Positions 1,963-7,825 of a stretch of DNA of 13,163 bases are shown here, in pieces. Source of the DNA: a virus (taxonomy: Duplodnaviria; Heunggongvirae; Uroviricota; Caudoviricetes); the IMG/VR virus record IMGVR_UViG_2526164663_000038; one strand, written 5' to 3'. The translations under genes were made by a program, and so were the position numbers. Position 1 is the stretch's first letter. Every line of letters begins with the position of its first letter. Below the pieces are notes generated by a model that did not search any database, was not told where the DNA came from, and saw only the letters and a program-made list of their open reading frames with translations.

Positions 1963-2504
1963 TTAAAAATCAGCCTGACTCGGGATCAGTTTTTGCCAGA
2001 TAACTGAAACGTATTTTGCCTGGTAACGGGCGTCATCAAGTGCATTATGGCGCTCACCTTCGAATGGAATAGCCGTTCTGGCATCGAAGTCTATGGCTTT
2101 CCCCAGCTCAACGATTGTGCGTACATCGCGATCGTTGTAGTAACGCCACGGGCAGGGGATCCCCTGCCGTTCGTATGAACGGCGCAAAATCGTGTTGTCG
2201 AAGTTGGCTCCATTTCCCCAGACCTGAACAAAAAATTCACCGGAGTTTTCGTCGATAAATTCCCGCAATTGTAACAGTGCATCATCTAACGGGATTTCAT
2301 CGGTCATAATGGCAGATTGCGCTTCGCGTGATTGCTTAAGCCACCATTTAATGGTGTCCCGATCAATGACTCCGCCAGCAGTTTCCAGATCGATAGTCTT
2401 ACTAAATTCCGGTCCCATATCTCCGGTTTGCGGATCGAAAAATATTGCACCTATTGAGATGATCGGGGCATCAGGATTTTTCCCATGGTTTCAAGGTCGA
2501 TCAT
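1963..2504 (-). pseudogene. DEDDh (DnaQ-like) 3'-5' exonuclease domain, split by a -1 frame junction
   Basis: Exo I motif MIDLETMGK (ATG 2504) is in the frame of the upstream 366-aa ORF; the remainder (PDAPIISIGAIFFD..., Exo II FDNTIL, Exo III HNALDDARY) is the ORF 1963..2418 in the -1 frame; junction at GGGAAAA, plus 2478-2484. Confidence 0.7.
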
Positions 2505-3598
2505 TAGATGGTCACACGTCCTGCTGGTGGATGTGATTTCTTGATGACCGTTCACCTTAATTGGGTGATCTGCCGTCTCGCCAGTTTCATTATCGCTATC
2601 GTGATGCTGATTGCCGCCAGTGTTCTCCTTGTGTGGATGTTCAGCGCCTTCCATTTCCTCCGGATCATCTTCCTGAACTTCAACCTGATACTCTTCATCG
2701 AATGTTTCCTGGTATGTAGCGTCGCCCATCACCGCGCCACAATCAGGGCAGTTGCCGCCGCCGGTCTGACCGCAGGCGGTGCAGACTTTTTCCACTTCCT
2801 GTTGCACTACTGGTTCAGGTAGTTTCGTTTCTGGCTCGTTTTGTTGCGTATTTGGGCTGTTTTGTTCCGCTTTCTGGTCGTTCTGTTCCGTTTCTTGCTG
2901 GTTCTGGTTCACAGAATCGCGGGTTTCAATCCCCTTCACCCATTTCGGATCATTCGGGTCGCTAATCCCTGCAACAAATTCACCACGTGATGCGGCGAGC
3001 AACTGATTGGCGTCAGGCTGGCTGATATTGGCTGCCTGCATAATTTTCTTTACTTCGTCAGCGGTAACTTTTACCGGTTCTGGTTGTTCAGAATTTTGTG
3101 CGGTATTTGCATTTTGCGGTAAACCTGTGTATGTGCCATTTTTTCGGGCGAAATATTCTTCTTTCGTGATTTCAGTAGCCCCTGCAGCCAGTGCCTTATC
3201 CAGACCAGAAAGTTTGTTTGCGCGACCGTATTTTTCGCTATCCTTGTCGGTGAAGAGGAAGTAGAACGGCCCTTCACGCTCTACAGATGGTTCGACTTCC
3301 ACTTTGCATTCGGTTTTTTCGTTGTCCGGAATTGCCGTTTCCACTGCATCAGTTTCTGGTACTGGCGACGAGAGAGTATCAGTTGCGCTCTGATTTCTTC
3401 CTTCATCTTCAAACACGCCCTTTGTAGTCAGGTATTCAGTAATGTATTTGTTCAGTGCCACAGGGTCTTTGTGAATGTCGATCGGACGTTCACGGACAAG
3501 GCCAAAAATAGTCTGGCGGTCGTAGCGAAGGGCATCAGGCTGTTTGCGCATTGATGCCGAGATACGCTTCCAGTCTTCGCGGTCGTTGTCGATAACTT
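2451..3598 (-). pseudogene. Central segment of the large early-left gene: acidic, Gln/Glu/Asn-rich low complexity with CxxC-x7-CxxC zinc ribbon
   Basis: This frame is open from the slip site at 3599-3605 to 2451 and reads straight into MIDLETMG; motif CTACGQTGGGNCPDC; protein-like composition. Confidence 0.6.
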
Positions 3599-4142
3599 CT
3601 TTTTTGCCCAGCGATGGATGCTGCCGTCAATGTTTCCGGCATCCACATCACCAGGCCAGAGAGCGTAGGCCAGTTCGTCATCCAGTGTTTTCCATGTCTG
3701 CTTGTATTCGCGATGAGTGGCAGCAATGACCGGGCTGATTTTTCCTGTTGAATTTTCAGTGTTCTGTTGATTGGCTCTGGCGCGGGCGAGATCAACAACA
3801 GACGTGTATTTTCCGGTTTCCTTGCGTTCACCTTCGCGACGTTTTTTCCAGATGCGCATCTCTGCCTGAATTTCGGGCCATTTGGCACCAGGCTTACATT
3901 TATGCTTAACCCACCCGATGGCATGCAGCTTAAGCTCCGGATACATGGCGTTAACTTCTGGCATTTTCATCAACGCTTCAACGATATGTCCGTCGAATGT
4001 TGCCATGTCTTCCTGCAACAATTCCTGCGCGCTAATCACCATATCAACGGTGATGTTTTCACATGTGTCGAACTTAACCATGACAGCGTTCTGTACTTCA
4101 GGGGCCAGCTTGTCAAAAGTGACGTTCATCGGATCTGATTCA
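3599..4142 (-). pseudogene. Middle segment of the large early-left gene, from the IS junction to the slip site (possibly ydfE-like)
   Basis: Continues the frame of the 5414..5703 fragment once the IS and one TSD copy are removed (..PVET|ESDPMNVTFDKL..); the track ORF 3452..4168 begins with a GTG inside the IS end and runs out of frame after 3599. Confidence 0.6.
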
Positions 4143-5410
4143 TGAGGTAGCCTGAGTTTAACGGACACTCCTTCCTGAAATAGAATGGCATCAGAAGGAG
4201 CTAATAATGAGCAGAAAAACCCAACGTTACTCTAAAGAGTTCAAAGCCGAAGCTGTCAGAACGGTTCTTGAAAATCAACTTTCGATCAGTGAAGGCGCTT
4301 CCCGATTATCTCTTCCTGAAGGCACTTTAGGACAATGGGTTACCGCCGCCAGAAAAGGGCTCGGTACTCCTGGTTCCCGCACGGTGGCTGAACTGGAATC
4401 TGAAATTCTGCAACTGCGTAAGGCGTTAAATGAAGCTCGCCTTGAGCGAGTCGGAGATATTAAAAAAAGCAACAGCGTATTTTGCACAGGAGTCGCTGAA
4501 AAATACGCGTTAATCGAACAATGGCGACAACAATTTCCCATTGAAGCGATGTGTCAGGTATTTGGTGTATCCAGGAGCGGTTATTACAACTGGGTACAGC
4601 ATGAACCCTCAGACAGAAAACAAAGTGATGAGCGGCTAAAACTGGAGATTAAGGTGGCACATATCCGCACTCGCGAAACATATGGAACCCGGCGGCTCCA
4701 GACGGAGCTGGCAGAGAATGGCATCATCGTTGGTCGTGACCGACTGGCACGTCTTCGTAAGGAGCTAAGGCTACGCTGTAAGCAGAAACGCAAGTTCAGA
4801 GCGACTACGAACTCGAACCACAATCTGCCAGTTGCGCCAAATCTGCTGAACCAGACGTTCGCTCCTACAGCACCAAATCAGGTCTGGGTGGCGGACCTGA
4901 CGTATGTTGCCACACAGGAGGGATGGTTGTACCTCGCTGGCATCAAAGATGTTTATACGTGCGAAATTGTCGGCTACGCCATGGGAGAGCGCATGACAAA
5001 AGAGCTGACAGGTAAAGCTCTGTTTATGGCGCTCAGGAGCCAGCGCCCACCTGCCGGGCTAATCCACCACTCTGATCGAGGTTCACAGTACTGCGCATAC
5101 GATTACCGGGTCATACAGGAGCAGTTTGGTCTGAAAACATCAATGTCGCGTAAAGGTAACTGTTACGACAACGCTCCGATGGAAAGCTTCTGGGGAACGC
5201 TGAAAAATGAGAGCCTGAGCCACTATCGTTTTAATAACCGGGATGAAGCCATCTCAGTAATACGGGAATACATTGAGATTTTCTACAATCGTCAGCGTCG
5301 TCACTCTCGTCTGGGGAATATCTCCCCGGCAGCCTTCAGGGAAAAATATCATCAGATGGCTGCTTAAAAAAAGAACAAATGGTAGTGTCCGCTATTGCCA
5401 GTACACCTCA
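4143..5410 (+). mobile_element. IS3-family insertion sequence (IS600-like), 1268 bp
   Basis: Imperfect terminal inverted repeats TGAGGT...GGACAC (4143-4170) and its complement (5381-5410); flanking 3-bp direct repeat TCA at 4140-4142 and 5411-5413; DDE transposase inside. Confidence 0.85.
4207..5367 (+). CDS. IS3-family transposase, OrfA and OrfB fused in one frame (386 aa)
   Basis: N-terminal HTH and leucine zipper (LESEILQLRKALNEARLE); DDE catalytic region (VWVADLTYV, HHSDRGSQY, ESFWGTLKNE); N-terminus MSRKTQRYSKEFKAEAV matches my recollection of IS600 OrfA; SD GGAG upstream. Confidence 0.85.
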   Translation: MSRKTQRYSKEFKAEAVRTVLENQLSISEGASRLSLPEGTLGQWVTAARKGLGTPGSRTVAELESEILQLRKALNEARLERVGDIKKSNSVFCTGVAEKYALIEQWRQQFPIEAMCQVFGVSRSGYYNWVQHEPSDRKQSDERLKLEIKVAHIRTRETYGTRRLQTELAENGIIVGRDRLARLRKELRLRCKQKRKFRATTNSNHNLPVAPNLLNQTFAPTAPNQVWVADLTYVATQEGWLYLAGIKDVYTCEIVGYAMGERMTKELTGKALFMALRSQRPPAGLIHHSDRGSQYCAYDYRVIQEQFGLKTSMSRKGNCYDNAPMESFWGTLKNESLSHYRFNNRDEAISVIREYIEIFYNRQRRHSRLGNISPAAFREKYHQMAA

Positions 5411-5413
5411 TCA

Positions 5414-5703
5414 GTCTCAACCGGGACAAAGGAAGCAGACTCCTCATCCCAGCGGTTTTCCTGCATATATTCAGCATCCCAGGAATCGAGGGCAGGGCGG
5501 GGTATACCGGGTTTATCCTCGCAAACAAGAAATTTATAAGCGCAGTCCTGAGCAGCCGGATAATGTTCCAGGAATTGCCAGTGAAATTTTGCGCGGGCGC
5601 GACGTTCATCACCGGCTTCAATGGCAGTGGCTACAGCGACGGCACCTTCTTCCTTTATTGCCTGTTCGTCCGGAATGGCGGCGCAAATAAAGACTTTACT
5701 CAT
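5414..5703 (-). pseudogene. N-terminal fragment (97 codons) of the large early-left gene, truncated by the IS insertion
   Basis: ATG at 5703 with GAGG upstream; frame runs into the IS right end and resumes at 4142 after virtual excision. Confidence 0.6.
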
Positions 5704-5795
5704 TTTGTTTTAACCTCATTACAGATTTCAGGGTGAACGAATCCCTGCCATTGCTGGCATTTTTAATCCGTTGGTATGCGTTATATGGCTGCGGG

Positions 5796-5984
5796 TTATC
5801 CAGCCGGTATTTCGTTATTCAGGTTCAGCGATACTTTTTTTAACGGGAGGCATTCACCGGGGATTTTTTGTTCGTCCCTTACCTGAATGCAGGATGACTT
5901 ACTGTCATAAATTCCGGTAATCACATTTTGTGGCTCACCCGTTATAAGAAAAACGGTCATCACCAGTGCAAATGCTGAAGTCAC
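5796..5984 (-). CDS. ydfD: YdfD-like small membrane protein (62 aa)
   Basis: GTG start overlapping dicB stop (GTGA), GGAG 7 nt upstream; hydrophobic N-terminus SAFALVMTVFLITGEP and C-terminal EQKIPG...EIPAG pattern recalled for Qin YdfD. Confidence 0.6.
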   Translation of the reverse strand: MTSAFALVMTVFLITGEPQNVITGIYDSKSSCIQVRDEQKIPGECLPLKKVSLNLNNEIPAG

Positions 5985-6169
5985 TGCTGTTCTCCGATAA
6001 TACCAAGTTCAAGAAGGGCAATTCTGGAAAGTATGGAATTATCATTGAGAAGATAAGGTTCATATTTCCTCATCTTAATGGCATCTTCAGTAAACTCCCG
6101 GTTACTGAGCAGAACACCAATATCAAAACAACCTTCAGACGTATTAACGTTTGGTAATAACGTTTCCAT
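5981..6169 (-). CDS. dicB: Cell division inhibitor DicB homolog (62 aa)
   Basis: ATG at 6169 preceded by GAGGA; N-terminal half METLLPNVNTSEGCFDIGV...FTEDAI matches my recollection of E. coli DicB, C-terminal half differs; the track ORF start at 6274 is an upstream in-frame extension. Confidence 0.8.
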   Translation of the reverse strand: METLLPNVNTSEGCFDIGVLLSNREFTEDAIKMRKYEPYLLNDNSILSRIALLELGIIGEQQ

Positions 6170-6396: not shown

Positions 6397-6657
6397 ATTG
6401 ATAACAGAGGGCGTTGCAGCGGGGTTGTCACTTAAGCGTATGGTCAACCTGACAACCCGGTGTCCTCAATGGGGAAGGAATAACCCCGCCATACTTACCG
6501 CCGCGCCATTTCGCGGATTGCCACAACCAGAAGCGCACGGTCGAAGAAATTTAACGACAAGACTTATATGCAAAGGGATCTCGCCGTGCGCTTTCGTGTT
6601 ATGCCCTGACTTTTCAGGGTAAATTAACCTGTGGAAACCTGTTTTTACTGGCGCTAA

Positions 6658-7038: not shown

Positions 7039-7063
7039 AAAAAAAAGGTCGGCATTGCCGACC
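7039..7063 (-). terminator. Rho-independent terminator of the repressor gene
   Basis: GGTCGGC-att-GCCGACC hairpin followed on the minus strand by a run of eight U; lies 22 nt downstream of the repressor stop. Confidence 0.7.
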
Positions 7064-7744: not shown

Positions 7745-7825
7745 ATTGAATATAAATTATTTTAGATTGCATTGACCTAAAAAAATTATCTTGTAATCTA
7801 AAAATACTTAGATTTAGGAGGTAAA
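7745..7825. promoter_or_regulatory. Divergent immunity promoter/operator region (OR; PR rightward, PRM leftward)
   Basis: AT-rich 81-bp intergenic region between divergent repressor and cro; TTGACC (7772-7777) as candidate PR -35; inverted repeat AATCTA-N8-TAGATT (7795-7814) and extra TAGATT (7764-7769), same half-site as OL. Confidence 0.6.

What the first reader, a model, noticed from the sequence alone, without database searches (positions are those of the whole stretch)
4444..4500. IS transposase OrfA and OrfB are fused in frame, so no programmed frameshift is needed
IS3-family elements normally encode OrfA and OrfB in separate frames and make the OrfAB transposase by -1 slippage. Here one 386-aa ORF runs from the OrfA N-terminus through the DDE domain. 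The offset frame after the A7 run (4470-4476) still reads EILKKATAYFAQESLKNTR-stop, a typical OrfA C-terminus, so the ancestral two-ORF layout is visible. The fusion corresponds to 1 or 4 extra nucleotides just upstream (around cgaGTCGgagat). A constitutive OrfAB without the OrfA regulator could be hyperactive or deregulated.
Basis: partly seen in the sequence, partly recalled or inferred. Interest (0 to 1): 0.5.

Follow-up and report, generated by a model that had tools for sequence, protein, structure and literature searches.

The report
IS600 frame fusion, probably adaptor artefact
The single long transposase gene is really in this sequence, but the few extra bases that create it match a 454 sequencing adaptor in an error-prone draft assembly, so it is most likely an assembly artefact and not a deregulated jumping gene.

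Summary
Window 4143-5410 is an IS600 copy with a 3-bp TCA target duplication, inserted in a prophage exonuclease gene. One 386-aa ORF (4207-5367) runs from the OrfA N-terminus through the DDE domain.

The only difference from canonical IS600 is TCGGAG (4451-4456) replacing AT, a net +4 nt, just 5' of the A7 slippery run. That run is at 4462-4468, not 4470-4476.

The fusion is probably not biological:
- The window is 100% identical to draft contig AIGR01000022.1 (inferred E. coli O26:H11 DEC10C).
- The new bases with their context (GAGTCGGAGA, 4448-4457) exactly match the reverse complement of 454 adaptor A. Only 3 of 4096 possible 6-mers at that site would give such a match.
- The same 13 kb carries five one-base homopolymer contractions and no substitutions against two independent relatives. 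That is the 454 error signature.
- The variant is absent from about 6,400 other matching places in complete E. coli genomes and from every other collection searched.

A genuine in-frame IS600 fusion does exist elsewhere. A 17-nt deletion gives a 379-aa ORF at a fixed locus in roughly 430-520 complete-genome records. Low interest; checking the raw reads or PCR would settle it.

The parts
4143..5410 (+). IS600 copy (IS3 family), 1268 nt against the canonical 1264 nt. Ends are 5'-TGAGGTAGCC...ACACCTCA-3'.
   Evidence: Aligns to canonical IS600 of E. coli O26 RM8426 (L003 5393-6656) with 1263/1268 identities, 1 mismatch and one 4-nt gap. Multiple alignment with two further copies.
4140..4142 (.). 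Left copy of the 3-bp target-site duplication (TCA).
   Evidence: Read. In the uninterrupted exo gene of L003, positions 4342-4344 match both window 4140-4142 and 5411-5413.
5411..5413 (.). Right copy of the 3-bp target-site duplication (TCA).
   Evidence: The same right junction is present in the independent Illumina draft contig BEJV01000100.1 (L005).
4207..5367 (+). Single 386-aa ORF spanning the OrfA N-terminus (HTH), leucine-zipper region, HTH_21 and the DDE (rve) domain. This is the recorded in-frame OrfA-OrfB fusion.
   Evidence: ORF; Pfam domains; alignment with the PGAP frameshift-joined 385-aa IS600 transposases; the window reads LERVGDIKKSNSVF where these entries read LERDIFKKSNSVF; slippage on the A7 run would give LERDILKKSNSVF, my inference.
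4448..4457 (+). GAGTCGGAGA, a 10-nt exact match to the reverse complement of 454/Ion 'adaptor A' (...GTCTCCGACTCAG). It contains all six non-IS600 bases, TCGGAG at 4451-4456, which replace the canonical AT.
   Evidence: the only adaptor match of 10 nt or more in the 13,163-nt window, and only 3 of 4096 possible 6-mers at this site would give such a match. Adaptor sequence verified in PMC3420255 and PMC4921037.
4462..4468 (+). A7 slippery run (canonical A AAA AAA G, the -1 frameshift site), unchanged in this copy.
   Evidence: PGAP annotates a 'programmed frameshift' for canonical copies.
4475..4508 (+). Hairpin starting 6 nt 3' of the slippery run (GCGUAUUUU...AAAAUACGC), a candidate frameshift stimulator, unchanged in this copy.
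   Evidence: the repeat finder I6: 12-nt arms, 92% complementary. RNA fold -13.8 kcal/mol, but z-score only -1.2 against shuffles, so it is not statistically distinctive on its own.
4469..4513 (+). Vestigial OrfA C-terminus in the offset frame (ATAYFAQESLKNTR then TAA).
   Evidence: Identical to the canonical OrfA frame in the alignment.

Best explanation
The in-frame OrfA-OrfB fusion is most likely an assembly artefact, not a mutation in the bacterium. The window is a stretch of a 2012-era draft contig (AIGR01000022.1, inferred E. coli O26:H11 DEC10C) that carries 454-type errors.

About 310 nt inside the left end of a multicopy IS600, the consensus appears to have absorbed the untrimmed tail of a read that ran into 454 adaptor A. 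Overlaying ...GAGTCGGAGA(C) on the genuine ...GAG----ATA(T) gives exactly the recorded TCGG insertion plus T->G change. The net +4 nt happens to join the two frames.

The real element is then an ordinary IS600. It would make OrfA (100 aa) and, by -1 slippage on A AAA AAA G, OrfAB.

Shown: the adaptor identity, the platform-typical errors in the same contig, and the uniqueness of the variant. Inferred: the sequencing platform and the exact way the read tail entered the consensus.
For: 1. The window is 13163/13163 identical to AIGR01000022.1, so the feature is in the public draft record and nowhere else.
2. The novel bases plus context, GAGTCGGAGA (4448-4457), equal positions 3-12 of the reverse complement of adaptor A, CCATCTCATCCCTGCGTGTCTCCGACTCAG. 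This is the only adaptor match of 10 nt or more in the window. Only 3 of 4096 (0.07%) possible 6-mers at that site would create one. The adaptor identity is documented in PMC3420255 and PMC4921037.
3. Over 10.8 kb of otherwise identical backbone, the window differs from complete genome RM8426 by 0 substitutions and 5 one-base homopolymer contractions. At the three sites also covered by an independent Illumina draft (L005), that draft agrees with RM8426 and the window is the outlier. Two of the contractions split the exo gene into spurious ORFs.
4. [quoted passage not shown]
5. No match carries the change: 6,378 places matching the 76-nt region in 2,819 complete E. coli genomes, best full-length identity 93.4%, which is the canonical sequence. 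The pattern is also absent from GTDB genome contigs, IMG/VR and JGI metagenomes. The 386-aa product is not on record among 153 billion gene positions.
6. No nearby direct or inverted template explains the change as a templated mutation. Only chance-level 8-9-mers were found.
Against: - The raw reads were not examined, and the genome announcement (PMC3370608) was not available. Use of 454 chemistry is inferred from the error signature and from memory.
- The reverse complement of adaptor A is not the adaptor normally met at the 3' end of standard Lib-L shotgun reads. It needs an A-A or double-adaptor fragment, or bidirectional chemistry.
- A consensus normally needs more than one supporting read.
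- The adaptor hypothesis was formed after seeing the sequence, so the 0.07% figure is post hoc, although it covers both adaptors in both orientations.
- The change is not a homopolymer error, so the five contractions show that the contig is error-prone but do not prove this particular error.
Confidence: 0.8

Rival explanations
1. The +4 nt change is a real private mutation of this IS600 copy in strain DEC10C. Translation then yields mainly a 386-aa OrfAB-like protein without frameshifting and no authentic OrfA. Rare slippage on the retained A7 run would give short products: a -1 slip gives ...KKKQQRILHRSR-stop, and loss of one A gives an OrfA-like ...KKATAYFAQESLKNTR-stop. Depending on whether the altered zipper (LERVGDIKK) still multimerises, the copy would be either deregulated in cis or dead.
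For: - The sequence is in the public record exactly as given.
- The IS insertion itself is genuine. It has a TSD, and its right junction is seen independently in L005.
- The change is not of the homopolymer class seen elsewhere in the contig.
- Natural frame fusions of IS600 do occur, as the 17-nt deletion variant shows.
- Engineered one-base fusions in IS911 and IS2 give OrfAB as the principal product (PMC2909936; PMC3219604).
Against: - The six new bases match a sequencing adaptor, with a chance of about 0.07%.
- It is a singleton among thousands of copies and all collections searched.
- A complex AT->TCGGAG substitution has no local template.
- The host contig is demonstrably error-prone.
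- There is no evidence that this variant proliferated.
Confidence: 0.13
2. It is a sequencing or assembly error of some other kind, for example a consensus glitch where a unique-flank unitig was joined to a collapsed IS600 repeat unitig. In that case the adaptor resemblance is coincidental.
For: - The site lies about 310 nt inside a multicopy repeat, roughly one 454 read length from the unique flank (inference).
- The contig has other errors.
- The variant is unique.
Against: All IS600 copies compared are identical across this region, so mixing copies cannot create new bases. A random glitch would match the adaptor only about 0.07% of the time.
Confidence: 0.07

Closest known systems
Canonical IS600 (IS3 family), e.g. 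WP_085948186.1 in E. coli O26 RM8426 and many STEC and Shigella genomes
   Same: 99.6% nucleotide identity over the whole element. It has the same TG...CA ends, a 3-bp TSD, the same A7 slippery run, downstream hairpin, OrfA tail and DDE domain.
   Different: The canonical element has orfA and orfB in frames 0 and -1, joined by programmed -1 frameshifting (PGAP 'programmed frameshift'). The window record has +4 nt that fuse the frames and change DIL to VGDI.
Natural frame-fused IS600 variant with a 17-nt deletion (379-aa 'IS3 family transposase' WP_000088357.1)
   Same: An IS600 derivative (3 mismatches plus the deletion over 1264 nt) in which OrfA and OrfB form a single ORF without frameshifting.
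   Different: The fusion comes from deleting AAAAGCAACAGCGTATT, which destroys the slippery run and half the hairpin. It is confirmed in many independent assemblies from NCBI, ENA and Logan, and in roughly 430-520 complete-genome records (6 of 40 evenly spaced rows of 3,365). It always lies at one locus, capU-virK-lpxM | IS | BCCT transporter. It lacks a clean TSD (CAA against ACA). It is often the only match in its genome. The window's variant is a singleton.
Engineered fused-frame OrfAB mutants of IS911, IS2 and IS3
   Same: The idea is the same: adding nucleotides at the frameshift window so that OrfAB becomes the main product and OrfA is lost (PMC2909936; PMC3219604).
   Different: [quoted passage not shown] Here 4 nt are added upstream, which alters three residues and adds one in the leucine-zipper region.
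Residual 454 adaptor or homopolymer errors in draft assemblies
   Same: A 10-nt identity to the reverse complement of adaptor A, and one-base homopolymer undercalls in the same contig.
   Different: It is too short (10 nt) to be flagged by vector screens. It is embedded in the consensus, not at a contig end.

Membership tests
IS600 / IS3 family insertion sequence | Near-identity to reference IS600 over the full length (about 1264 bp) | tested here: met
   1263/1268 identities with one 4-nt gap against L003 5393-6656. Hits are annotated 'IS3-like element IS600 family transposase'.
IS600 / IS3 family insertion sequence | Terminal inverted repeats ending 5'-TG...CA-3', and a 3-bp target-site duplication | tested here: met
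   TGAGGTAGCC... at 4143 and ...ACACCTCA at 5410. TCA at 4140-4142 and 5411-5413 corresponds to a single TCA in the uninterrupted exo gene.
IS600 / IS3 family insertion sequence | N-terminal HTH plus a C-terminal DDE (rve) catalytic domain | tested here: met
   Pfam HTH_Tnp_1 at 1.9e-23 and rve at 5.9e-26, plus HTH_21, rve_2 and rve_3. D230, D290 and E326 are present, with 35 residues between the last two.
IS600 / IS3 family insertion sequence | Two partly overlapping ORFs (orfA in frame 0, orfB in frame -1) joined by programmed -1 frameshifting at an A-rich slippery site | tested here: not met
   As recorded, the two frames are one ORF. The slippery A7 run, the hairpin and the OrfA tail are all still present. 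The failure is caused only by the 4 extra nt, which are suspected to be artefactual.
Genuine frame-fused (constitutive OrfAB) IS3-family copy | A single continuous OrfA-OrfB reading frame in the DNA | tested here: met
   386-aa ORF at 4207-5367.
Genuine frame-fused (constitutive OrfAB) IS3-family copy | The fusing mutation is confirmed by independent sequence data | tested here: not met
   Absent from every other copy or dataset searched. The only other contig with this insertion site (L005) ends 81 nt inside the IS.
Genuine frame-fused (constitutive OrfAB) IS3-family copy | The fused protein keeps the native OrfAB sequence and an intact leucine zipper, and is active | tested here: inconclusive
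   LERDILKK becomes LERVGDIKK, so Leu84 at a d position is lost and a Gly is introduced (heptad reading by inspection). Activity cannot be tested here.
Sequencing-adaptor or assembly artefact | The novel bases match a platform adaptor | tested here: met
   GAGTCGGAGA equals reverse-complement adaptor A positions 3-12; 3 of 4096 by chance. Adaptor verified.
Sequencing-adaptor or assembly artefact | The same assembly shows errors typical of that platform | tested here: met
   Five homopolymer contractions and 0 substitutions in 10.8 kb. The window is the outlier against two independent assemblies.
Sequencing-adaptor or assembly artefact | Raw reads lack the variant, or carry it only with clipped adaptor | not testable with these tools
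   There is no access to SRA reads of GCA_000250035. The genome announcement PMC3370608 is not held.

The most novel reading that the evidence does not exclude
The +4 nt is a real private mutation in E. coli DEC10C. It would be a spontaneous frame-fused IS600 that keeps its slippery site. It would make an OrfAB with an altered last zipper heptad as the main product, and OrfA-like peptides only by rare slippage. That would be a natural inversion of the OrfA:OrfAB ratio, which could be compared with the widespread 17-nt deletion fusion.
Probability: 0.13. Interest if true: 0.3.

Novelty: not a real feature. Interest (0 to 1): 0.1.

Why it matters
If the fusion were real, it would be a natural counterpart of the laboratory fused-frame IS3-family mutants. 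It would allow a test of how loss of OrfA and constitutive OrfAB affect IS600 activity in an EHEC-lineage genome.

The main value of the analysis is cautionary. A 10-nt adaptor remnant inside a draft consensus can create a plausible-looking 'regulatory mutation'. In the same contig, homopolymer errors create spurious split genes in exo.

The by-product is more interesting. A genuine in-frame IS600 fusion, made by a 17-nt deletion, is fixed at one locus in hundreds of E. coli genomes and has not visibly proliferated there. This argues against the idea that fusing the frames is enough to make IS600 hyperactive.

Tried and rejected
1. Other carriers of the exact variant. I searched E. coli complete genomes (76-nt query), GTDB genome contigs (two patterns), IMG/VR, JGI metagenomes, and an exact-product look-up. 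None carries it.

2. A complete genome with IS600 at the same exo site, to read an independent copy. None exists. Only draft L005 shares the junction, and it stops 81 nt into the IS.

3. A templated mutation (direct or inverted donor, quasi-palindrome). Only chance-level 8-9-mers were found elsewhere in the window, about 1.5 expected and 3 seen. Rejected.

4. Mixing of divergent IS600 copies as the source. Rejected, because all canonical copies compared are identical across the region.

5. The hairpin as a statistically supported frameshift stimulator. The fold z-score is only -1.2, so it is described but not relied on.

6. The DEC genome announcement, to confirm the sequencing platform. It is not held, and a search for AIGR00000000 gave nothing. 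Strain identity (DEC10C) is inferred from the accession series in PMC5592225.

7. A literature search for IS600 with OrfAB and frameshift found no papers.

8. The possibility that the window had been altered after download. Rejected, because it is 100% identical to the public contig.

Full report
**What is there**

The window is the early region of a lambdoid prophage (int, xis, exo, dicB, cI/cro, ydaT, dnaT-like, P, hokD). It closely matches prophages of E. coli O26:H11.

At 4143-5410 lies an IS600 copy. It has the family-typical TG...CA ends and a 3-bp TCA target duplication at 4140-4142 and 5411-5413. It interrupts the prophage exonuclease gene.

The ORF listing gives a single 386-aa ORF at 4207-5367. 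That ORF contains the OrfA HTH (HTH_Tnp_1), HTH_21 and the rve DDE domain.

**The difference from canonical IS600**

I aligned the copy with three canonical IS600 copies: plasmid pE2865-2, chromosome 7_26_9A and chromosome RM8426. PGAP annotates all three as two frames joined by a 'programmed frameshift'.

The alignment shows one difference in 1264 bp. The window reads GAGCGA-GTCGGAGAT-ATT where the others read GAGCGA-GATAT-ATT. TCGGAG (4451-4456) replaces AT, a net +4 nt.

The change lies 5 nt upstream of the A7 slippery run at 4462-4468.

These features are untouched:
- the slippery run
- the hairpin at 4475-4508
- the OrfA tail ATAYFAQESLKNTR-TAA in the offset frame

**Where the sequence comes from**

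The chimeric 103-aa ORF that crosses the right IS/exo junction is on record in two contigs.

The window is 13163/13163 identical to one of them, NCBI draft contig AIGR01000022.1 of GCA_000250035.2. In PMC5592225, AIGK-AIGO are DEC9A-E and AIGS is DEC10D. From that accession series I infer that AIGR is DEC10C, an O26:H11 strain also called 1557/77 (PMC4711113).

The other contig, L005 (BEJV01000100.1, which I take to be an Illumina-era draft), shares the right junction, so the insertion event is real. That contig ends 81 nt inside the IS. No RefSeq complete genome has IS600 at this site. Other O26 genomes carry it about 1 kb away, between dicB and a DUF1391 gene.

**Is the +4 nt real?**

Three lines of evidence say probably not.

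1. Uniqueness.
   - A 76-nt query across the site finds 6,378 places in 2,819 complete E. coli genomes. The best full-length identity is 93.4%, which is the canonical sequence.
   - Exact-pattern scans of GTDB genome contigs, IMG/VR and JGI metagenomes find nothing.
   - The 386-aa product is not on record.

2. The contig is error-prone in a platform-specific way.
   - Across 10.8 kb of backbone the window differs from RM8426 by zero substitutions and five one-base homopolymer contractions: T6->T5 at 2477, T7->T6 at 3600, G5->G4 at 6471, A9->A8 at 7039 and A8->A7 at 7779.
   - At the three sites that L005 also covers, L005 agrees with RM8426 and the window is the outlier.
   - Two of these contractions break exo into the 366-aa and 238-aa ORFs seen.
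   - This is the classic 454 (or Ion Torrent) signature.
   - Others have already suspected such errors in sister DEC assemblies (PMC5592225).

3. The new bases match a sequencing adaptor.
   - With their context they read GAGTCGGAGA (4448-4457). This is an exact match to positions 3-12 of the reverse complement of 454 adaptor A, CCATCTCATCCCTGCGTGTCTCCGACTCAG.
   - The adaptor sequence is confirmed in PMC3420255. The same sequence is the Ion linker in PMC4921037.
   - It is the only match of 10 nt or more to adaptor A or B, in either orientation, in the whole window.
   - Only 3 of the 4096 possible 6-mers at that site would produce such a match.
   - Overlaying the adaptor tail ...GAGTCGGAGA(C) on the genuine ...GAG----ATA(T) reproduces exactly the recorded TCGG insertion plus T->G.

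No local direct or inverted template could explain the change as a templated mutation.

**Most likely mechanism (inferred)**

A read with an incompletely trimmed adaptor, for example from a double-adaptor or A-A fragment, ended about 310 nt inside the repeat. That is roughly one 454 read length from the unique flank, and its tail was absorbed into the consensus.

Caveats:
- I could not see the reads, and the genome announcement is not held.
- The reverse complement of adaptor A is not the usual 3' adaptor of Lib-L shotgun reads.
- The adaptor idea was formed post hoc.

I put about 0.8 on the adaptor artefact, 0.07 on another kind of error, and 0.13 on a real mutation.

**If it were real**

Engineered fusions in IS911 (one bp added, OrfAB sequence unchanged; PMC2909936) and in IS2 (A6G to A7G; PMC3219604) make OrfAB the principal product.

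This change is different, because it rewrites LERDILKK to LERVGDIKK. By inspection of the heptads, the a/d positions are V60, L63, I67, L70, L74, A77, R81 and L84. The change removes Leu84 and adds a Gly in the last heptad of the leucine zipper. In IS911 this motif is reported as essential for activity (Haren et al. 1998 and 2000, cited). The protein could as easily be dead as hyperactive.

The A7 run is retained. A -1 slip from the new frame would give ...KKKQQRILHRSR-stop. Loss of one A would give an OrfA-like ...KKATAYFAQESLKNTR-stop. The regulator would therefore not be entirely absent. This is inference.

**Comparison with what is known**

Natural frame-fused IS600 already exists. The protein search returned a group of 379-aa proteins from NCBI, ENA and Logan gene calls. 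They read LERDILN-CTGVAEK.

Their DNA carries a 17-nt deletion, AAAAGCAACAGCGTATT. It removes four of the seven A's and half the hairpin, and it fuses the frames. Otherwise the element is full-length IS600 with 3 mismatches.

- It always lies at one locus, between capU-virK-lpxM and a BCCT transporter gene.
- PGAP annotates it as an intact 'IS3 family transposase', WP_000088357.1.
- It accounts for 6 of 40 evenly spaced rows of 3,365 matching records, which is roughly 430-520 complete-genome records.
- It is the only match in the record in 7 of the 12 top hits.

A fused frame in IS600 is therefore neither unprecedented nor, in that natural case, associated with proliferation.

**Verdict**

The feature is most likely not real biology. 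Interest is low. Read mapping or a single PCR with Sanger sequencing would settle it.

Noticed in passing
L006 1937-3183 (gene 2001-3140); L011 2297-3436; not in the window: A genuine in-frame OrfA-OrfB fusion of IS600 made by a 17-nt deletion (AAAAGCAACAGCGTATT) that removes the slippery site. It gives the 379-aa protein WP_000088357.1. It always lies between capU-virK-lpxM and a BCCT transporter gene. It is present in roughly 430-520 complete E. coli genome records and in many Logan, ENA and NCBI drafts. It is often the only IS600-like copy in the genome, and it has no clean TSD (CAA against ACA). It may be a fixed, non-proliferating or domesticated copy.
   Followed up: partly
window 2477-2481, 3600-3605, 6471-6474, 7039-7046, 7779-7785: Five one-base homopolymer contractions relative to both a complete O26 genome (L003) and, where it overlaps, an independent draft (L005), with no substitutions in the same 10.8 kb. 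This is a 454-type error signature. The first two split the 823-aa exo gene into spurious 366-aa and 238-aa ORFs (2451-3551 and 3452-4168, minus strand).
   Followed up: yes
window 4140-5413, compared with L003 5393-6656: IS600 sits in exo in this strain and in BEJV01000100.1. In RM8426 and several other O26 complete genomes it sits about 1 kb away, between dicB and a DUF1391 gene, and that site is empty in the window (around 6455-6458). No RefSeq complete genome shares the exo insertion. This looks like lineage-specific IS600 movement within one prophage.
   Followed up: partly
window 5630-6120: A short mosaic patch covering the exo N-terminus, DUF1482 and dicB region. About 300 nt (5761-6057) do not align to the O26 reference, and the flanks are 96.5-98.6% identical. 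The rest of the prophage is identical apart from homopolymers. The patch matches other E. coli prophages at about 99%, which suggests a small recombination tract.
   Followed up: no
window 4459-4470 and PGAP proteins P0005, P0025: PGAP's joined IS600 transposase reads ...DIFKKSNS... Slippage on A AAA AAA G would give ...DILKKSNS... The annotated join position appears to lie one codon upstream of the likely slip site.
   Followed up: no
L004 gene calls (GCA_000250035.2 annotation): The deposited annotation calls only a 272-aa OrfB (from the internal ATG at window 4549) for this IS copy and no OrfA, so the recorded fusion went unnoticed. The cI-like (214-aa) and cro genes that are called in L005 are also missing from the L004 gene list.
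   Followed up: no
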